Below are positions 165-7,598 of a stretch of 64,000 nt of DNA, piece after piece (position 1 is the first letter of the stretch; every line of letters begins with the position of its first letter). The DNA lies in contig CAKPRG010000004.1 of the NCBI GenBank assembly GCA_934182465.1, positions 66,529-130,528 of the forward strand. The letters run 5' to 3'. The notes beneath the pieces are model-generated. The model ran no database searches. It saw only the letters and a program-made list of their open reading frames with translations, and was not told the origin of the DNA. This stretch comes from an uncultured Clostridia bacterium. Lineage in GTDB: Bacteria > Bacillota > Clostridia > TANB77 > CAG-508. The translations under genes and the position numbers were made by a program.

Positions 165-953
165 CTAATTGTTTTTAGTTGGTATAAAATTACTTGCAAA
201 TTTGTATTTTTCCCTATTTTCAATATATAAAAATCCTATCGCACTAAATGCAACTGCACCAATAAAATTAACGATTAAATCTTTCATAGTGTCATTAATT
301 CCAATATCCAAATATCCACCATTTATAACGAAAGTTCCATCTTCTGTAATAATATCTGTTTCTTTTATATTATTTATAACTATTGGTTTATTTTTCTTTT
401 CTGGATTTATTTCAGTAGATGATATTGTTGTGACAATTCTATCTTTTTGCATATCTAATTTCAATAAAGAATCAGCTCCATATTCAAAAAATTCCCATAA
501 AACACCTATTGTCATAGAAAAACAAAATGCTACCAAAGCAACAAAAATCGGTGATAATTTAATTTGTTTACTATTTTGATTTAATAAATCTATTAATGAA
601 AATCCTATTCCTGCTGCTAAAAATCCATTTATTGTATGTAATACAGTATCCCAATGAGGAATAATTCCATAAAAATTATTTATTTCTCCTAGAATTTCTG
701 CAGAAAAAATAAAAACATATATAATTCCCTCTAACAAAGATGGCAATGTTATTTGAAATTTATCTTGTATTAGTGTTGGAATTGTAAATAAAAACAACGA
801 CACCAAACATAAACATGCATTGTTTAAATCCCCTCTTAAGATTTGTAATACCATACAAATTATAACTAAAATTCGTAATGTCAAATAAACTCTAAGTGAT
901 CCTTTTTTAGTTTCTTTGTATTTTTCTTTCATTTTATTAGAAAACTTTCCCAT
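165..953 (-). CDS. Polytopic membrane protein of unknown function: N-terminal ~150 aa with 4-5 TM helices, then a soluble C-terminal domain
   Basis: 262-aa ORF; hydrophobic stretches LRILVIICMVLQIL, LVSLFLFTIPTL, GIIYVFIFSAEILG, FLAAGIGFSLIDLL, VALVAFCFSMTIGVLW; no catalytic motif recognised. Confidence 0.5.
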   Translation of the reverse strand: MGKFSNKMKEKYKETKKGSLRVYLTLRILVIICMVLQILRGDLNNACLCLVSLFLFTIPTLIQDKFQITLPSLLEGIIYVFIFSAEILGEINNFYGIIPHWDTVLHTINGFLAAGIGFSLIDLLNQNSKQIKLSPIFVALVAFCFSMTIGVLWEFFEYGADSLLKLDMQKDRIVTTISSTEINPEKKNKPIVINNIKETDIITEDGTFVINGGYLDIGINDTMKDLIVNFIGAVAFSAIGFLYIENREKYKFASNFIPTKNN

Positions 954-1026
954 ACATCTCTCCTAAAATTTAATATAAAACTTTTAGAAAATATATCACA
1001 CTTTCATTTAAAATACAAATTTAAAA

Positions 1027-2007
1027 TTATATTTGATTAATTAAATTAATAATATCTTTTCCGTGAAAATTTATTTTTACATCTGGTAATATTTTTGATT
1101 TTTTTAAATCATCAATTGTCTTTGGCATTAGCTCTAGAATCTTCTCTAATTCATCATTATTAAAAACATAATATGCAGGTATATTTTTTTCTTTGGATCT
1201 TTGTTTCCTAAATTCAATTAACTTTTCTTTTAAATTATCATTATTAGAATATTCACATTCATTATCATTAATATCAAATTCAAAGTTTTCTTCTTTTTTT
1301 ACATTTAATTTAATAAAGTGATTTGCCCATTGTTCCATTGATTTTTTATTATCCCACAAATCTTTATCACTATGGTTACGATCATATTCTAATTTCCTTA
1401 TTAGAGCATCTGCTTTTACAATATTATCTTTCATCTCTTTTGGAGCATATTTGGTATTTAATATATTTTCTCCATTTGAGGCAACAACTAGTACTCTATG
1501 AATATTTTCAAAATTTCTTTCACAAATGAAACTTTTTAATTTTCCTTGTAATTTAACCCAAATTTTTTTGTAAACTTCTCTCTGAGCTTGAACTTGTCTA
1601 TAAGGTGATTCCATTCCTTTTTTCACTTTATTACCTTTGAAATAATATTCTCTAATAAAATCCCCTTTTTCGTCAACTAAAATATTTCCAATTAAATTTT
1701 TACATTCTATAAAATAACAACACCATGGCGTTATTACAATAAAATCAATTTGTGCTTTTAAATCTTCATATATAAGGTTTACATCATGAAGAACAAACAT
1801 ACCAATATTAGATTTTTTTAATTGATATATTATTTCATTTTCTCCTTCCAATCCCTTTTGAGCCATATATAATTGTTGACTAATATTCTTATTATTTGGA
1901 TGTTTATTCTTTAATTCATTCAAATATTTTACTTTTCTTTCTAACTCACAATCTTCTTTTAAAATTATAGCATCTCTAAATTTATCAAATATATCTAAAA
2001 TTCCCAT
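1027..2007 (-). CDS. NERD (nuclease-related domain) protein with C-terminal HRDC-like helix bundle
   Basis: 326-aa ORF; NERD-type core (…GENEIIYQLKK…HDVNL…DFIVITPWCCYFIECKN…) and C-terminal IPAYYVFNNDELEKILELMPKTIDDL resembling RecQ HRDC. Confidence 0.6.
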   Translation of the reverse strand: MGILDIFDKFRDAIILKEDCELERKVKYLNELKNKHPNNKNISQQLYMAQKGLEGENEIIYQLKKSNIGMFVLHDVNLIYEDLKAQIDFIVITPWCCYFIECKNLIGNILVDEKGDFIREYYFKGNKVKKGMESPYRQVQAQREVYKKIWVKLQGKLKSFICERNFENIHRVLVVASNGENILNTKYAPKEMKDNIVKADALIRKLEYDRNHSDKDLWDNKKSMEQWANHFIKLNVKKEENFEFDINDNECEYSNNDNLKEKLIEFRKQRSKEKNIPAYYVFNNDELEKILELMPKTIDDLKKSKILPDVKINFHGKDIINLINQI

Positions 2008-2038
2008 ATTTTTACTTCTTATCTTTCAATTTTTCTAA

Positions 2039-3022
2039 TTATAATATCTTCCAAGTACCATTTTTGGTAGAACCATCTCTTTTAATTATTCCTTTTTCTT
2101 TTAGTTTTTTTATATTATATGATATTCCATCTCTTGTTAATCCAAGTATTTTTGCCATTTCAACTTGTGTAATAGCTGGATTTTTCTTGATTAAATTTAT
2201 TATTGTTTCTTGTGTAGTTTCTTGTGTAGTTTCTTGTGTAATTTCTTTATTAGATGTTAAAATCATTCCATCTACAGCTTCTTTGATAATTTCAAGCATA
2301 AATTCAATAAATTCGTTTGAATTTCCAGCATTATTGCAATTTTGAATAACAGCATAGTATTCTTCTTGATGTTTTCTTATTATACTTTCTATTGGAATAT
2401 ATTTAAATAAATCTTTCCAATGTGATAATATAGCTGTTTGCCATAATCTTGCAGTTCTTCCATTTCCATCTGAAAAGGGATGTATAAATACAAATTCATA
2501 ATGAAATATGGAAGATAAAATTAATGGATTAACTTTTTCTTTTGCTTCGTTCATCCAATTAAATAAATTATCCATTAATGTTGGAACCATTCTATGATGT
2601 GGAGCCATAAAAATTTGAACATCTCCATCATAAACAGCCTCTCCATGATTTCTAAACTTTCCACTATCATCTTCAATAGCAAAAGTTAATATTCCATGTA
2701 TCTTTTTTAAATCCTCTACAGAATACGGATTTACATTATCTATCTCTTCATAAGCCTTATATGCATTTTTAACTTCTTGAATATCTTTTTGCTCTCCTAT
2801 TACTGATTTTCCATTTATTACAGCTTCAACTTGAAACAATGATAATTGATTATTTTCAATTGCTAAAGATGAATGTATTGACTGAATTCTTGTTTTTCTT
2901 CTTAATTCCGGAAATCTATTTAAACTTTCAAAATAATTTGCTTCTCCTATTTTTTCCATTATACTTGTCGCCAAATTTAACATTTTATCAGTAATTGTAT
3001 ATGGTGGGTATTCTATTTCCAT
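2039..3022 (-). CDS. Fic/Doc family protein (AMPylator-type fold) with C-terminal winged-helix DNA-binding domain
   Basis: Canonical Fic motif HPFSDGNGRTARL; C-terminal MAKILGLTRDGISYNIKKLKEKGIIKR HTH; internal TQET x3 tandem repeat (nt ~2200-2245). Confidence 0.85.
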   Translation of the reverse strand: MEIEYPPYTITDKMLNLATSIMEKIGEANYFESLNRFPELRRKTRIQSIHSSLAIENNQLSLFQVEAVINGKSVIGEQKDIQEVKNAYKAYEEIDNVNPYSVEDLKKIHGILTFAIEDDSGKFRNHGEAVYDGDVQIFMAPHHRMVPTLMDNLFNWMNEAKEKVNPLILSSIFHYEFVFIHPFSDGNGRTARLWQTAILSHWKDLFKYIPIESIIRKHQEEYYAVIQNCNNAGNSNEFIEFMLEIIKEAVDGMILTSNKEITQETTQETTQETIINLIKKNPAITQVEMAKILGLTRDGISYNIKKLKEKGIIKRDGSTKNGTWKIL

Positions 3023-3271
3023 TTCAAACCTCCAAATCGTATATTTATTGTAAATTTTTACTTTCTAACCGTTTTTATAAGCTTCTTCTTTTTTTATATT
3101 TATATCATAAATTTCAATATTTTCATATATTTTTATTACAATTTATAAAAAATTGAAAATATTGCTAATTCAAAATATATAAAACTCTAAATTTTATCTC
3201 TTTTACTAAATATCTCAAATAATTAGATTAGCAACAGATTAGTAAAATACTTATTCCAAAATGCAAAAAGA

Positions 3272-3301
3272 AAGAGTAAGAATTGTTTAACTCTTACTCT
3301 T
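3272..3301. terminator. Hairpin (aagagtaag/cttactctt) flanked by A- and T-runs, possible bidirectional terminator
   Basis: 9-bp inverted repeat with 12-nt loop seen directly. Confidence 0.3.
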
Positions 3302-3442
3302 TATTGTTGCCGTTGACGTAGACATCTACAACTTCTTCGGCCTCGTAACAATTGATACAAATATCAATCAATTTATTAAAAAAATATCATATTCTTGATA
3401 AAATGCAATATAAAATTACTAAAATTTTTAAAGTAATGAAAA

Positions 3443-3473
3443 AGACCATCCTATGGGGATGATCTTACCTTTT
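3443..3473 (-). terminator. Rho-independent terminator for the 99-aa ORF
   Basis: aagaccatcc/ggatgatctt imperfect stem followed by T-run on minus strand. Confidence 0.4.
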
Positions 3474-3523
3474 CTTTGACAAATGAGACCTAAAAAAGGA
3501 TTTTGGAGACGTAATTCACCGAC

Positions 3524-3823
3524 TCAAATAGCTTTTCCGTTGTAGGTAAGGTTACTCCAACGAGTAATCTTGAGCCCATTGAACTCAAAGCTAGAACCCA
3601 CAGGCATTGTTGCCATGCGTTCCAATACATATTCAGGAGCCTTCACGTACAGACACAGAGCCTCTCTCGTCATCATTGCAGGTGCAACAACATCCATATA
3701 GGAAATCTCAGAGAGAACATCTTTAATTTTGTTGTCGTCAGCACTGTTTTCGAAGCAAATTCCCATTACCCGAAAAACTCCACGTTCTTTGTCCACTGCA
3801 TACTGAGTTCTGTTGTAAGTCAT
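3524..3823 (-). CDS. Hypothetical 99-aa protein in a GC-elevated patch
   Basis: ORF with codon usage and GC clearly higher than neighbours; followed on its own strand by hairpin plus U-run (3443-3470); no family recognised. Confidence 0.45.
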   Translation of the reverse strand: MTYNRTQYAVDKERGVFRVMGICFENSADDNKIKDVLSEISYMDVVAPAMMTREALCLYVKAPEYVLERMATMPVGSSFEFNGLKITRWSNLTYNGKAI

Positions 3824-3962
3824 ATTTTCTCCTTTCTCTGTGCCATCCTTAATTGTGGTATGGTCTTACCAGAAAGCGCTTTTGACTTTTGCATAATTTA
3901 ATTATAGCACATTTTACATAAAATTTCAAATTTATACCTAAATTTTGCCAATATTTACAAAT

Positions 3963-4247
3963 TTATATTTTTTTCAAATCTTCTTCTAACTCTGATAATT
4001 TTATCTTTTTATATAAGTTTGAAATATACACATCATTTGAATAATAGAAAACTAAAAAAGTAATACTTTTAATAATCACTTTATGTGGCTCAATATATGT
4101 AAGATTAGTTTTTTCTAATTTTCTAATGCTACCATTTATAAAAGTAGGGGTAACTTTAGCAAATTCACATATAAATTCAAGTCTCTGTTTTAGACATTCT
4201 TCAAATTGTAATTCTTGTTTAATTATTTTCAATATTAACACCATCAT
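3963..4247 (-). CDS. Hypothetical small protein (94 aa)
   Basis: ORF only; no motif recognised. Confidence 0.3.
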   Translation of the reverse strand: MMVLILKIIKQELQFEECLKQRLEFICEFAKVTPTFINGSIRKLEKTNLTYIEPHKVIIKSITFLVFYYSNDVYISNLYKKIKLSELEEDLKKI

Positions 4248-4287
4248 TTCATTTGGATGATTTTAATATTATTTTAGACAACAAAAA

Positions 4288-4316
4288 AATCAACCAGATT
4301 TATTTTCTGATTGATT
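4288..4316 (-). terminator. Terminator hairpin downstream of tRNA-Leu
   Basis: aatcaaccag/ctgattgatt stem followed by U7 on minus strand. Confidence 0.5.
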
Positions 4317-4357
4317 TTTGTATCTATCTGTTCCATTAGTTCGAACAGATACATCAT

Positions 4358-4445
4358 TGGTGCAGATGGCCGGAATCGAACCGGCACGGTTTATTCAACC
4401 GCAGGATTTTAAGTCCTGTGCGTCTGCCAGTTCCGCCACATCTGC
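4358..4445 (-). tRNA. tRNA-Leu (anticodon UAA), class II with long variable arm, CCA encoded
   Basis: Reverse complement folds as GCAGATG acceptor, CAGGA-CUUAAAA-UCCUG anticodon arm (UAA), long variable arm CGGTTGAATAAACCGTG, GCCGG-TTCGATT-CCGGC T-arm, discriminator A + CCA. Confidence 0.9.
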
Positions 4446-4855
4446 ATTTACTGGCATTTTCTTTTTGTCTATCACCTGCTGACAAGTGATATTATACTAT
4501 CTGATAAATCATTTGTCAACACATTTTATAAATTTTTTTAAAAAATTTTACATTTTTTCAAAATCATGATATAATATTTCTGTTGAAAGTATTGCTACTA
4601 CCCATTCATGTAGATTTTTCAATATTATATTACAATATAAAATTTATTATATAAACTGCATAAATTTATACCAATTTTATAAATTTTATTTTATATACTA
4701 TATTTTTATTACAAACTCATTTTAAAATTTATAAAATATATTAGTTTATAATTTATAATAGATAATATAAAATATAATTTACAATATATTTTATAATTTT
4801 GGTTTATAGGTAAATCCAGTTTAAAACCTAAATATATATAAAGGATCAGATTTTT

Positions 4856-5476
4856 ATGAATAATGAATATGATTGCAAAACACCATTAGAATATCAAATA
4901 ACAGATTACGATTGTGGTACAACTACTTTGCTAAATGCTATACGCTTTTTATTTTATAGAAGTGAAATTTCACCAGAAATTTATAAATTTATTTCTCACC
5001 ATACTCTCGATATTTGCAATACAAATGGCGAAATTGGAAAAGGTGGTACATCAACACAAGCATTAGACTTTTTAAGTAATTGGTTAAATCAAAATAGTAC
5101 AAAGCAAAGAATGCCTATTTTATGTACAAAATTAATTAATAATGATGTTTCTATATATAATAAATTTTTGGAAGAAAAAATTAGCAATGGAGCTGTAGCA
5201 ATTTTAAGAGTACATCAAGAATGTGAACACTATTGCTTACTTACTTCTTTAGATTCTAATTTTGCATATATTTTTGATCCTTATTATTTAGAAAAAGGTA
5301 CATATGATGATGATAATTTAGTTGAAATGATTTTTGATAAACCTTTTGAATATAATAGAAAAATAAAAAAAGAACGACTTAACAGTAATTCTCTTGAAGA
5401 TTTTTCTTTAGTAACTGGTAAAAATGGAAGTATTATAATTATAGAAAAAATAAAAATACAAAAAAGCCACGGCTAA
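4856..5476 (+). CDS. Papain-like cysteine peptidase, C39-like domain protein
   Basis: DCGTTTLLNA Cys motif near N-terminus and downstream HYCLLTSLD…IFDP His motif typical of C39-like peptidases. Confidence 0.5.
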   Translation: MNNEYDCKTPLEYQITDYDCGTTTLLNAIRFLFYRSEISPEIYKFISHHTLDICNTNGEIGKGGTSTQALDFLSNWLNQNSTKQRMPILCTKLINNDVSIYNKFLEEKISNGAVAILRVHQECEHYCLLTSLDSNFAYIFDPYYLEKGTYDDDNLVEMIFDKPFEYNRKIKKERLNSNSLEDFSLVTGKNGSIIIIEKIKIQKSHG

Positions 5477-5490
5477 GCCGTGACTTATTG
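5461..5490. terminator. Bidirectional terminator between convergent C39-like gene and spoVG
   Basis: gccacggc-taa-gccgtgac hairpin with A5 upstream and T-rich downstream. Confidence 0.6.
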
Positions 5491-5495
5491 TATTT

Positions 5496-5774
5496 CTATT
5501 CTTCAACTTCTGCTGTTTCAGCTTCTGGAGATTCATAAGCTTCTAATATAGCTTTTTGAATTTTTTCTCTAGTTTCAGCATTAATTGGATGAGCGATGTC
5601 TTTGAATTCTCCGTTTGGAGTTTTTCTGCTAGGCATAGCTATAAATAATCCATTTTGACTTTCGATAACTTTGATATCGTGAACTACGAATTCCTCATCG
5701 AATGTTACAGAAGCAACAGCTTTCATTCTGTTCTCTGAATTTACTTTTCTTAAACGTACATCTGTTATTTTCAT
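5496..5774 (-). CDS. spoVG: Septation protein SpoVG
   Basis: [64 protein letters not shown] is near-identical to SpoVG consensus; true start at internal Met. Confidence 0.95.
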
Positions 5775-6185
5775 TTTGTTAAGCACCTCTTTCTCAAGTT
5801 TTTTATACATATATTATTATTTATGTACAATTATAATATTCGCCAAAAAAATTTTTTTTCCTTCTTATTTTTACAAAAATTTCAATTTTTATTAACCTAA
5901 TCTATATCTTTTTATAAATTTTAGTAAATTACATAATTTTTCACATATTTTTTTCTTTTTCATAAAATAATATTAGTGCAAATGTTTTAAAAAAACTTAT
6001 GTAAAAATTTGGCATGATTCTTTGCATAATCGAATTTTAAAGATTTTTCTACTATAGAATTTTCTCCAAAAAACTTTCTTTTTATAAAAATTAAAACATA
6101 TTTTATTCACAAAATTTCTTTTTGAGAGTTGAAAAACTTTATGTTTCATTATATAATGTAAAAAATTCAAGGAGGCGCATAATAA

Positions 6186-7598
6186 TTGAACTTAGAAGTT
6201 AAAGATTTAAAAAAATTCAAAAAAATTCATTTAATTGGAATTGGTGGCATTAGTATGAGTGCTGTTGCTGAAACACTACATAACTGGGGATTTCACGTAA
6301 CTGGTTCTGATGCTGCTCACAGTGAAATTACTGATAAATTAAATTTACATGGAATAAAAACTACAATTGGTCATGATTTAGAAAATGCTAAAAATGCTGA
6401 CTTAATTGTTTTTTCTGCTGCAATAAAAGATGAAGATCCAGAAATGGTCTTAGCTAGAGAAAATAATATTCCTCTAGTTGGTCGTGGTGAATTTGTTGGC
6501 TTACTTACAAAAATGTATAAAGAAACTATTTGCGTTGCAGGAACTCATGGAAAAACAACTACTACTTCTATGTTGTCTGTATGTTTTTTAAATGCTGAAA
6601 AAGATCCTACTATTGAAGTTGGTGCAATTTTAAATAAAATTGATGGTAACTATAGAGTTGGAAATAGTGAATATTTTATATTAGAGTCTTGTGAATATAA
6701 AGGAAACTTTTTAAAATTCTTCCCTAATACAGCAATTATTTTAAATATAGACAATGATCATTTAGATTACTACAAAACATTTGATAATGTTGTTAAAGCA
6801 TTTACTGATTTTGCACTTTTGCTAGAACCTAATGGTTTATTAGTTACAAATGCTGATGATAAAAATTGTTTCAACTTAAAAAATGTTGTAAAATCTAAAT
6901 TTATTTCTTATGGTATAGAAAATAAAAATGCTAACTTTATAGCAAAAAATATAACTTTTAACGATAATGGATTTGCTATTTTTGATATATTCAAAAATGG
7001 TGATTTCTTTGAACATATTGAACTTTCTGTTGCTGGAAAACACAATATTTTAAATGCTCTTGCATGTACTTCTGTTTGTGATTACTATGGTATTAGCAAA
7101 AATGTAATAGCAAAATCTTTAAAGGAATTTACTGGTGCTGAAAGGAGATTAGAATATAAAGGAGCTATTACTCCAAAAAATTCTAATACAGCTTCTGTTT
7201 CAATTTTTGATGATTATGGTCATCATCCTACTGAAATTGAAGCAACTGCAAATGCTATTGCAGAAAAGAAATTTAATGAATCTTGGGTAATTTTTCAACC
7301 ACATACTTATAGCAGAACAAAAACTCATTTAGATGCTTTTGCAAAAGTTTTAACTAAATTTGATCACATAATTCTTTTAGATATTTATGCAGCTCGTGAA
7401 AAAAATACAATTGGTATTAGCTCAAAAGATTTAGCAAACAAAATTAATTCTCTTGGAAAAGAAGCTTTATATATGCCAGATTTTGATGAAGTTGTAAATT
7501 ATATAAAATCAAATGTTAAAGATAATGATTTAGTATTAACATTAGGTGCTGGAACTGTTACTGAAATCGGTCCAATGCTTGTTAATTTTGAAAATTAA
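6186..7598 (+). CDS. murC: UDP-N-acetylmuramate--L-alanine ligase
   Basis: IHLIGIGGISMSAVA…GSD; VAGTHGKTTTTSML Mur ligase P-loop; TTG start with aggagg RBS. Confidence 0.9.
   Translation: MNLEVKDLKKFKKIHLIGIGGISMSAVAETLHNWGFHVTGSDAAHSEITDKLNLHGIKTTIGHDLENAKNADLIVFSAAIKDEDPEMVLARENNIPLVGRGEFVGLLTKMYKETICVAGTHGKTTTTSMLSVCFLNAEKDPTIEVGAILNKIDGNYRVGNSEYFILESCEYKGNFLKFFPNTAIILNIDNDHLDYYKTFDNVVKAFTDFALLLEPNGLLVTNADDKNCFNLKNVVKSKFISYGIENKNANFIAKNITFNDNGFAIFDIFKNGDFFEHIELSVAGKHNILNALACTSVCDYYGISKNVIAKSLKEFTGAERRLEYKGAITPKNSNTASVSIFDDYGHHPTEIEATANAIAEKKFNESWVIFQPHTYSRTKTHLDAFAKVLTKFDHIILLDIYAAREKNTIGISSKDLANKINSLGKEALYMPDFDEVVNYIKSNVKDNDLVLTLGAGTVTEIGPMLVNFEN

What the first reader, a model, noticed from the sequence alone, without database searches (positions are those of the whole stretch)
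1027..3022. Adjacent NERD nuclease and Fic-wHTH genes beside a tRNA-Leu, a defence or TA-like accessory pair
- A NERD-domain protein with an HRDC-like C-terminus is immediately followed by a Fic protein (HPFSDGNGRTARL) fused to a winged-helix domain.
- Both lie within 1.4 kb of tRNA-Leu(UAA) (4358-4445), a classical integration hotspot.
- An orphan GC-elevated ORF sits in between at 3524-3823.
- NERD and Fic domains both recur in phage-defence and toxin islands, and the pairing suggests an uncharacterised two-gene module.
- The Fic gene carries a TQET tandem repeat, which may be a contingency tract.
Basis: partly seen in the sequence, partly recalled or inferred. Interest (0 to 1): 0.55.

Follow-up and report, generated by a model that had tools for sequence, protein, structure and literature searches.

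The report
Unlinked Fic and NERD genes beside tRNA-Leu
Two stand-alone, horizontally mobile, probably defensive genes (a SoFic-type Fic AMP-transferase and a NERD-HRDC nuclease) sit side by side because each landed separately in the same tRNA-Leu integration hotspot, and they are not a conserved two-gene system.

Summary
The sequence observations hold. A NERD+HRDC protein (1027-2007, minus strand) follows a class II Fic+wHTH protein (2039-3022, minus) by 31 nt, downstream of tRNA-Leu(UAA), with a GC-rich ORF (3524-3823) and a 12-nt x3.6 repeat (2205-2247).

The "two-gene module" reading fails.
- No Fic gene is adjacent in 80 species-level NERD-HRDC loci. No NERD lies within 6 kb in 80 Fic-wHTH loci.
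- No neighbour family recurs in more than 9 of 84 NERD loci.

The common factor is the tRNA-Leu(UAA) 3' flank.
- Close Fic homologues sit 84-1131 nt after this tRNA in 17 of 27 informative loci, in about 8-10 otherwise unrelated contexts.
- NERD-HRDC is cargo of a ~4.5 kb integrase element with a 12-nt att repeat at the same tRNA (L010).
- The GC-rich ORF rides an integrase/relaxase element that carries a 56-nt tRNA-Leu fragment (L185).

Both proteins are far more conserved between species (75-91%) than co-resident core genes (30-62%), which indicates horizontal transfer.

The window is therefore a decayed composite island with no integrase or att left. The Fic protein matches the known SoFic defence type. 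NERD-HRDC is an uncharacterised stand-alone nuclease. The repeat is an in-frame linker of variable length, not a phase switch.

The parts
4358..4445 (-). tRNA-Leu(UAA), the anchor of the accretion hotspot. It has its own consensus promoter (4519-4491) and terminator (4319-4285).
   Evidence: ARAGORN; Rfam 59.4 bits; promoter TTGACA-17-TATAAT 12/12 and terminator. The same tRNA precedes NERD in L009 and L010 and precedes Fic in 17 loci.
3963..4247 (-). ORF94, a 94-aa AT-rich ORF of unknown function between the tRNA and ORF99.
   Evidence: No Pfam, PHROG or PADLOC hit. tblastn relatives only in L167 (84%, 3.2 kb from a Fic gene) and L041 (39%).
3524..3823 (-). ORF99, a foreign GC-rich 99-aa gene with its own promoter (3929-3901) and terminator (3466-3442). 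It is cargo of a tRNA-Leu-targeting integrative mobilisable element in other genomes.
   Evidence: GC 42.7% and GC3 43%. 33 homologue clusters with no Pfam domain. Substitutions by codon position 13/7/45. In L185 the homologue lies on an element with integrase and Mob_Pre fragments and a 56-nt tRNA-Leu 3' fragment.
3271..3345 (-). Short GC-elevated fragment (38.7% GC) ending in a terminator hairpin. Probably a remnant of an earlier insert.
   Evidence: Sequence; terminator at 3302-3271; GC; no Rfam match.
2039..3022 (-). Class II Fic AMP-transferase fused to a C-terminal winged helix (SoFic-type architecture). Inhibitory motif S52-xxx-E56-N57, catalytic motif HPFSDGNGRTAR, strong RBS, promoter-like site at 3218-3191.
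   Evidence: Pfam Fic and HTH_24. PADLOC SoFic 4e-50 covering 20-344/361. PDB 4RGL 5e-68. Homologues at 84-92% identity in unrelated contexts.
2205..2247 (-). 12-nt x3.6 tandem repeat encoding (T)TQE units in the linker between the Fic and wHTH domains.
   Evidence: TRF. Copy number is 1 to about 5 among homologues at 75-92% identity, and the repeat is absent in the 66-69% clade.
1027..2007 (-). NERD (PD-(D/E)xK nuclease; D88, E101, K103) fused to a C-terminal HRDC nucleic-acid-binding domain. It starts 31 nt after the Fic stop with no terminator between them.
   Evidence: Pfam. Invariant catalytic residues. AF2 model with pLDDT 83.7. HRDC TM 0.84 to 2RHF. Cargo of integrase elements in L010 and L003.

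Best explanation
Window ~1027-4357 is a decayed composite island built by successive insertions into the 3' flank of tRNA-Leu(UAA). It now holds at least three unrelated cargo genes and has no integrase or att repeat left. The Fic-wHTH gene and the NERD-HRDC gene are independent, stand-alone, horizontally mobile accessory genes. They are adjacent, and probably co-transcribed, only in this species.

Inferred function of each gene:
- The Fic protein is a SoFic-type class II AMP-transferase. It would be held off by its own N-terminal inhibitory helix and would AMPylate host targets when triggered, as in abortive-infection-type defence.
- NERD-HRDC is a PD-(D/E)xK nuclease that its HRDC domain would direct to nucleic acid. 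It most likely acts against invading DNA or for the benefit of the small integrative elements that carry it.

Shown here: the domain content, the independence of the two genes, their mobility, and the tRNA-Leu targeting. Inferred only: the biochemical activities and any defence role.
For: Independence of the two genes:
- 0 of 80 species-level NERD-HRDC loci have an adjacent Fic gene. Only L011 has a Fic-wHTH relative, 5 kb away.
- 0 of 80 Fic-wHTH loci have a NERD within 6 kb.
- No neighbour family occurs in more than 9 of 84 NERD loci.
- Fic homologues at 84-90% identity lie in three unrelated contexts.

Hotspot at tRNA-Leu(UAA):
- L010 reads tRNA-Leu, then ORF163, integrase, GIY-YIG-like gene and NERD, then a 12-nt repeat (CATCTGCACCAA) of the tRNA 3' end. 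After the repeat comes DNA that directly follows the tRNA in L009.
- Fic lies 84-1131 nt after tRNA-Leu(UAA) in 17 of 27 informative loci, and the flanks are mostly unrelated between groups.
- The ORF99 homologue in L185 sits on an integrase/Mob_Pre element beside a 56-nt tRNA-Leu fragment.

Horizontal transfer:
- NERD is 86% identical to its L009 copy, against 30-62% for syntenic core genes.
- Fic is 75-91% identical where co-resident proteins are 31-48%.
- The NERD block is 98% identical between L009 and L010, while their tRNA genes are 88% identical.

Function:
- PADLOC SoFic hit at 4e-50.
- The cis inhibitory motif and the canonical Fic motif are read directly from the sequence.
- SoFic is described as a stand-alone defence toxin.
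- D88, E101 and K103 are invariant in the NERD alignment, and the HRDC fold is confirmed.
- In strain L102, NERD has a stop at codon 2 while Fic is intact.
Against: - In this species the pair is fixed in all 23 contigs examined, is 31 nt apart, and has no terminator between the genes, so a local functional coupling cannot be excluded.
- L003 shows a second NERD-HRDC (67% identity) next to a SoFic-like Fic gene (25% identical to the window's), in the opposite order.
- Fic- or Doc-family genes lie within 10 kb in about 7 of 84 NERD contexts, slightly above a rough chance estimate of about 3%.
- No att repeat or integrase survives in the window, so the accretion history is inferred from other genomes.
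- How the Fic gene reaches the tRNA flank is unknown. No att repeat longer than 8 nt follows it.
- No experiment supports defence activity for either protein.
Confidence: 0.78

Rival explanations
1. A lineage-specific, newly assembled two-gene defence operon. Fic-wHTH would act as sensor or toxin and NERD-HRDC as nuclease effector, working together in this species and, convergently, in L003.
For: The genes are 31 nt apart with no terminator between them, so co-transcription is likely. The pair is fixed in all 23 contigs of the species. There is an independent adjacency of NERD-HRDC with a SoFic-like Fic gene in L003 and L004. Fic-family genes are modestly in excess within 10 kb of NERD-HRDC.
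Against: There is no adjacency in 80 plus 80 loci searched in both directions. The nearest orthologues of each gene occur without the other. Both families are stand-alone elsewhere, and SoFic is a single-gene system. Strain L102 has a nonsense codon in NERD while Fic is intact. Homology to relatives stops at each ORF boundary, which indicates separate acquisition.
Confidence: 0.12
2. A toxin-antitoxin pair in which Fic is the toxin and the neighbouring protein neutralises it, as in class I FicT/FicA or Sofic/AS1.
For: Fic proteins are frequent TA toxins. EcSofic has a downstream 47-aa antitoxin, AS1. The NERD gene lies immediately downstream of Fic.
Against: The inhibitory (S/T)xxxE(G/N) motif is in cis (S52...E56-N57), as in class II Fic proteins. 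NERD-HRDC is a 326-aa predicted nuclease with intact catalytic residues, not a small antitoxin. The Fic gene exists without NERD in all 80 other loci. No small ORF lies between or after the two genes.
Confidence: 0.03
3. Both are ordinary housekeeping genes in conserved core synteny, for example a Fic-type regulator functionally tied to tRNA-Leu and a repair nuclease.
For: Fic follows tRNA-Leu(UAA) in many related genomes with no integrase nearby. Some NERD-HRDC loci are flanked by core genes such as PPDK or Spo0A.
Against: The flanks on both sides of the tRNA-Fic unit are mostly unrelated between groups. Fic and NERD are 75-91% identical where core genes are 30-62%. att repeats and integrases are present in L010, L003 and L185. 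Other Fic copies follow tRNA-Gln or tRNA-Asp/Phe, or lie beside an ISL3 transposase.
Confidence: 0.07

Closest known systems
SoFic, the stand-alone Fic-domain anti-phage defence protein (Millman et al. 2022; PADLOC PDLC03963; structures 3EQX, 3ZCN, EcSofic)
   Same: Class II Fic fold with an N-terminal inhibitory helix motif, the canonical HPFxDGNGRxxR AMPylation motif and a C-terminal winged-helix domain. It is a single gene that usually stands alone in accessory regions. The PADLOC model matches at 4e-50 over about 90% of its length.
   Different: It is only distantly related to Shewanella and E. coli SoFic (PDB hits 3e-10; NCBIfam equivalog 67.5 bits against a cut-off of 550). Its closest solved relative is 4RGL (5e-68). 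It has a variable TTQE linker repeat. There is no AS1-like small ORF downstream. It shows a strong preference for the tRNA-Leu(UAA) 3' flank. It has not been tested for defence.
ZwsA (Zowangsin), a stand-alone NERD-domain defence RNase (bioRxiv 10.64898/2026.04.06.716636)
   Same: A single protein that combines a NERD PD-(D/E)xK nuclease with a nucleic-acid-binding domain and acts as a stand-alone effector. It has the same catalytic D/E/K arrangement.
   Different: ZwsA has the domain order VHS-DUF647-NERD-S4 and cleaves RNA-phage genomes in Pseudomonas. The protein here is NERD-HRDC from gut Firmicutes, is much shorter, and shares no detected sequence similarity with ZwsA beyond the domain type. 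Its substrate is unknown.
tRNA-targeting integrative (mobilisable) elements and genomic islands, including tandem accretion at tRNA 3' ends
   Same: L010 has a tyrosine integrase next to the tRNA and a direct repeat of the tRNA 3' end at the far end. L185 has a displaced 56-nt tRNA fragment. Cargo consists of defence-like genes, and different cargo occupies the same site in different species.
   Different: The window itself retains no integrase, relaxase or att repeat. It is an immobilised remnant, so membership is inferred by comparison only.
Class I Fic toxin-antitoxin modules (VbhT/VbhA, FicT/FicA)
   Same: A Fic-domain toxin whose activity is blocked by an inhibitory helix carrying (S/T)xxxE(G/N).
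   Different: Here the helix is part of the Fic protein itself, and the neighbouring gene is a 326-aa nuclease, not a small antitoxin.

Membership tests
SoFic-type class II Fic defence protein | Canonical Fic active-site motif HxFx(D/E)GNGRxxR | tested here: met
   HPFSDGNGRTAR at residues about 181-192. Pfam Fic 76.5 bits against a cut-off of 24.
SoFic-type class II Fic defence protein | N-terminal in-cis inhibitory helix with the (S/T)xxxE(G/N) motif | tested here: met
   S52-L-A-I-E56-N57, read from the translation and aligned to the same motif (SLAIEN) in 4RGL.
SoFic-type class II Fic defence protein | C-terminal winged-helix domain fused to the Fic domain | tested here: met
   Pfam HTH_24 7.5e-11 and MarR_2 at residues 270-315.
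SoFic-type class II Fic defence protein | Match to the family profile used by defence-system annotators | tested here: met
   PADLOC PDLC03963 SoFic: 4.1e-50, 169 bits, profile positions 20-344 of 361.
SoFic-type class II Fic defence protein | Equivalog of Shewanella SoFic (NCBIfam NF046030) | tested here: not met
   67.5 bits against a cut-off of 550, and only residues 148-318 match. PDB SoFic chains hit at 3e-10. It has the same architecture but belongs to a different subfamily.
SoFic-type class II Fic defence protein | Confers phage resistance or is toxic when de-repressed | not testable with these tools
   Requires an experiment.
NERD nuclease (Pfam PF08378) with HRDC | NERD profile match above the gathering score, with the PD-(D/E)xK catalytic residues | tested here: met
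   NERD 60.9 bits against 22.1. D88, E101 and K103 are invariant in 12 homologues at 57-100% identity. Weak PD-(D/E)xK fold matches.
NERD nuclease (Pfam PF08378) with HRDC | C-terminal HRDC fold | tested here: met
   Pfam HRDC 48.7 bits against 23.8. phmmer hit to 2RHF at 2.5e-5. Foldseek TM 0.84 and rmsd 1.3 A.
Known NERD-containing defence systems in PADLOC-DB 2.0 | Profile match of the nuclease part to a catalogued system | tested here: not met
   Only the HRDC tail matches DpdF models (2.5e-8). There is no hit to the NERD part. The NCBIfam MADS6 match is weak (3e-4, 19 bits against 460).
Conserved two-gene NERD+Fic module | The two families are adjacent in many unrelated genomes | tested here: not met
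   0 of 80 and 0 of 80 adjacent in reciprocal scans. The single exception, L003, has a Fic protein only 25% identical.
Class I Fic toxin-antitoxin module | Small separate antitoxin gene that supplies the inhibitory helix | tested here: not met
   The motif is in cis. The neighbour is a 326-aa nuclease, and there is no small ORF in the 31-nt gap.
tRNA-integrated genomic island | Integrase plus a direct repeat of the tRNA 3' end bounding the insert | tested here: not met
   In the window there is no second copy of the tRNA 3' end (up to 3 mismatches in 25 nt, or words of 9 nt or more on the tRNA strand) and no integrase within 10 kb. The feature is met in relatives: L010 has an integrase and a 12-nt repeat, and L185 has a 56-nt fragment and an integrase fragment.

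The most novel reading that the evidence does not exclude
NERD-HRDC is a previously unrecognised stand-alone nuclease defence or anti-MGE gene. It is spread among gut Firmicutes as cargo of very small (~4.5 kb) tyrosine-integrase elements that target tRNA genes. In addition, the Fic-wHTH clade may have a dedicated, integrase-independent way of homing to the tRNA-Leu(UAA) 3' flank.
Probability: 0.3. Interest if true: 0.5.

Novelty: new member of a known kind. Interest (0 to 1): 0.3.

Why it matters
This case shows that adjacency in a single genome can suggest a "system" when it only reflects two independent mobile genes piling up at one tRNA integration hotspot.

Useful by-products:
- A well-defined, uncharacterised NERD-HRDC nuclease family (about 1,700 clusters) carried by tiny integrative elements. 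It is a reasonable candidate for defence screening.
- A SoFic-type Fic clade in gut Clostridia that repeatedly sits just after tRNA-Leu(UAA).
- A documented tRNA-Leu(UAA) accretion site in uncultivated low-GC gut Clostridia.

None of this changes current concepts.

Tried and rejected
- Structured-RNA explanation for the GC-rich stretch: Rfam at gathering and at E<=1 found only the tRNA. The codon-position pattern shows it is coding.
- att remnants in the window: none found.
- Empty-site or variant arrangements within the species: all 23 contigs have the same arrangement.
- Phage origin: there are no close relatives of either protein in IMG/VR. Phage records reach at most 45% identity for Fic.
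- Plasmid origin of the GC-rich stretch: no match.
- A conserved alternative partner for NERD-HRDC: none. The best candidates were an ABC transporter (9 loci), an XRE regulator (8) and a Zn-ribbon protein directly downstream (6).
- General tRNA enrichment near NERD-HRDC: not seen. tRNAs were found in 10 of 80 loci, at 0.13 per 10 kb.
- att repeats after Fic in the tRNA-Leu-Fic loci: only chance-level matches of 8 nt.
- Orthology between the window's DUF2207 gene and the one after Fic in L097: no match.
Full report
**What is there**

The window is low-GC DNA (26% GC) from an uncultivated gut Clostridia lineage. Identical contigs occur in Hadza gut metagenomes, for example a 190 kb contig.

On the minus strand the order is as follows:
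- tRNA-Leu(UAA), 4445-4358
- ORF94, 4247-3963
- ORF99, 3823-3524
- Fic-wHTH, 3022-2039
- NERD-HRDC, 2007-1027
- a DUF2238 membrane protein, followed by LemA and DUF2207 genes

Core genes lie on the other side of the tRNA: SpoVG, MurC and SpoIVB.

Pfam confirms NERD (2e-16) plus HRDC (7e-13), and Fic (3e-21) plus HTH_24 (7.5e-11). The 12-nt x3.6 repeat at 2205-2247 and the GC elevation of ORF99 (42.7% GC, GC3 43% against about 12% for neighbours) are also real.

**What the two proteins are**

*Fic-wHTH*
- It has the canonical AMPylation motif HPFSDGNGRTAR.
- It has an in-cis inhibitory motif, S52-xxx-E56-N57, which makes it a class II Fic protein.
- It has a C-terminal winged helix.
- It matches the PADLOC SoFic profile over about 90% of its length (4e-50).
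- Its closest solved relative is 4RGL (5e-68). Canonical SoFic structures hit only at 3e-10, and it misses the NCBIfam SoFic equivalog cut-off (67.5 against 550 bits).
- It therefore has the SoFic architecture but is not an orthologue of Shewanella or E. coli SoFic.
- SoFic is described as a stand-alone defence gene. EcSofic is described as a toxic AMPylase dimer whose C-terminal domain is needed for toxicity, with a 47-aa antitoxin downstream in one E. coli strain.

*NERD-HRDC*
- It keeps an invariant PD-(D/E)xK triad (D88, E101, K103) across homologues at 57-100% identity.
- A confident AlphaFold model (pLDDT 83.7) shows a C-terminal HRDC domain that superposes on RecQ HRDC (TM 0.84, rmsd 1.3 A).
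- The nuclease part has only weak matches to Shedu SduA, Bax1 and Can2.
- PADLOC has no model for the nuclease part.
- A 2026 preprint describes ZwsA, a stand-alone protein with a NERD domain and an S4 RNA-binding domain that acts as a defence RNase. It is a functional analogue, not a relative.

**Is the pair a module?**

I tested linkage in both directions.

*(a) Starting from NERD-HRDC*
- An alignment-based scan of one genome per species returned 80 NERD-HRDC loci at 46-87% identity.
- I searched them by tblastn with the window's Fic protein and by a six-frame Fic-motif search. No locus had an adjacent Fic gene.
- Fic- or Doc-family genes lay within 10 kb in only four loci: L011 (5 kb away), L038, L041 and L082.
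- The two closest orthologues (L009 at 86%, L010 at 87%) have no Fic gene.
- Clustering all neighbours within 6 kb in 84 loci found no family in more than 9 loci.

*(b) Starting from Fic-wHTH*
- 80 Fic-wHTH loci from metagenomes (66-92% identity) contain no NERD relative within 6 kb.
- Three further close Fic homologues lie between CarD and a PRK-family kinase gene, between SMC and an EAL gene, and between an ISL3 transposase and DUF2207.
- Distant NERD-HRDC relatives on C. botulinum and Brevibacillus plasmids also lack a Fic neighbour.

*The single exception*

In L003 and L004 a 67%-identical NERD-HRDC is followed by a different SoFic-like Fic gene (25% identical to the window's). The pair sits inside an integrase/Mob_Pre element next to tRNA-Pro.

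*Conclusion*

Taken together, the pairing is not a conserved system.

**What actually explains the arrangement**

The recurring element is the tRNA.

*NERD-HRDC at tRNA-Leu(UAA)*
- In L010 the order is tRNA-Leu(UAA), ORF163, tyrosine integrase, a GIY-YIG-like gene and NERD-HRDC.
- About 80 nt after the NERD stop there is a 12-nt repeat (CATCTGCACCAA) of the tRNA 3' end.
- After this repeat comes DNA that directly follows the tRNA in L009.
- That defines a ~4.5 kb integrative element with NERD as cargo.
- L009 holds a truncated copy with the same distal repeat.
- The NERD block is 98% identical between L009 and L010, although their tRNA genes are only 88% identical.
- The L003 and L010 integrases are homologous, at 41% identity.

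*Fic-wHTH at tRNA-Leu(UAA)*
- Among Fic homologues at 83% identity or more with at least 300 nt of upstream sequence, 17 of 27 lie 84-1131 nt downstream of tRNA-Leu(UAA) on the same strand.
- Other copies follow tRNA-Gln (35 nt) or tRNA-Asp/Phe.
- The flanks beyond the tRNA and beyond Fic are mostly unrelated between groups of loci.
- The DNA after Fic holds unknown ORFs, a Mob_Pre relaxase, a Tad4-like domain, a patatin gene and ordinary genes.

*ORF99 at tRNA-Leu(UAA)*
- In L185 its homologue lies on an element with integrase and Mob_Pre fragments.
- That element begins with a perfect 56-nt 3' fragment of tRNA-Leu(UAA), running from the anticodon loop to the 3' end.

Each of the three cargo genes in the window is thus individually tied to this tRNA elsewhere.

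**Mobility**
- In L009 the NERD protein is 86% identical to the window's. The syntenic MurC and SpoIVB are 62% and 49% identical, and three further co-resident genes are 30-50%.
- Fic is 91% identical in L121, where another shared protein is 48%. Fic is 75% identical in the L154 group, where shared proteins are 31-34%. Orthology of these comparison proteins is not verified.
- Homology between the window and its relatives stops at the ORF boundaries: 2051-1026 for NERD and about 3053-2038 for Fic.
- The window has no second copy of the tRNA 3' end and no integrase within 10 kb.
- All 23 contigs of the species share the arrangement.
- The region is best read as an old, immobilised composite of separate insertions.

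**Local organisation**
- The tRNA, ORF99 and a short GC-rich fragment each end in a terminator.
- A promoter-like site at 3218-3191 precedes Fic.
- No terminator separates Fic from NERD, so the two are probably co-transcribed in this species.
- This leaves a small chance of lineage-specific cooperation.
- Against dependence, one strain (L102) has a stop at codon 2 of NERD with an intact Fic gene. The clustered G-to-T changes in that region could be assembly errors.

**The TQET tract**
- The (T)TQE unit sits in the linker between the Fic and wHTH domains.
- It ranges from 1 to about 5 copies among homologues at 75-92% identity and is absent in the 66-69% clade.
- Its 12-nt unit keeps the reading frame, so it tunes linker length and cannot switch the gene on or off.

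**Verdict**

The observations are correct, and the hotspot and defence flavour are reasonable. The proposed NERD+Fic module is not supported. The Fic gene is a new member of the known SoFic-type class. NERD-HRDC is an uncharacterised but ordinary-looking stand-alone nuclease carried by small integrative elements. Interest is modest.

Noticed in passing
L010:6508-11082: A compact ~4.5 kb integrative element at tRNA-Leu(UAA): ORF163, a tyrosine integrase (-), a 295-aa GIY-YIG-like protein and NERD-HRDC, bounded by a 12-nt direct repeat, CATCTGCACCAA. The GIY-YIG-like gene ends 33 nt before NERD, the same spacing as Fic-NERD in the window.
   Followed up: partly
L185:~327-382 and 523-6300: A perfect 56-nt 3' fragment of tRNA-Leu(UAA), with no intact tRNA in the locus. 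It is followed by an integrase fragment, a Mob_Pre fragment, ORF215 and the ORF99 homologue. This looks like a decayed tRNA-Leu-targeting integrative mobilisable element.
   Followed up: partly
window 3524-3823 (-): ORF99 belongs to a 33-cluster family of 99-102-aa proteins with no Pfam domain. Members are GC-rich (38-44%) in every AT-rich host examined, which suggests recent spread from a higher-GC donor. Function unknown.
   Followed up: partly
L188:6001-7392: A 74%-identical ORF99 homologue lies convergent with, and 157 nt from, a Doc/Fic-like gene (motif FIDGNKRTA). This is a second case of ORF99 next to a Fido-family gene.
   Followed up: no
L102:6947-6952 (= window ~2007-2002): One strain of the same species has GGA->TGA at codon 2 of NERD-HRDC, plus three other G->T changes within 50 nt. 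This is either pseudogenisation or an assembly artefact.
   Followed up: partly
L033, L035, L043, L051, L054, L058 (30-84 nt downstream of NERD): In six species a ~410-aa protein rich in CxxC zinc-ribbon repeats lies directly downstream of NERD-HRDC on the same strand. It is the tightest recurring neighbour found, but it is present in only 6 of 84 loci.
   Followed up: no
window 3271-3345 (-): A short GC-elevated (38.7%) fragment ending in a strong terminator hairpin, with no ORF of note and no Rfam match. Possibly the 3' remnant of a lost gene.
   Followed up: partly
window 42747-42909 (+): A glmS ribozyme/riboswitch (Rfam RF00234, 98 bits, full length).
   Followed up: no
window 4491-4519 (-): A perfect sigma-70 consensus promoter (TTGACA-17-TATAAT, 12/12) drives tRNA-Leu(UAA).
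   Followed up: no
L134:445-519 and L116:1-173: Close Fic-wHTH homologues (88-89% identity) follow other tRNAs: tRNA-Gln 35 nt upstream, and tRNA-Asp and tRNA-Phe about 840-930 nt upstream. The tRNA-flank preference is therefore not exclusive to tRNA-Leu.
   Followed up: no
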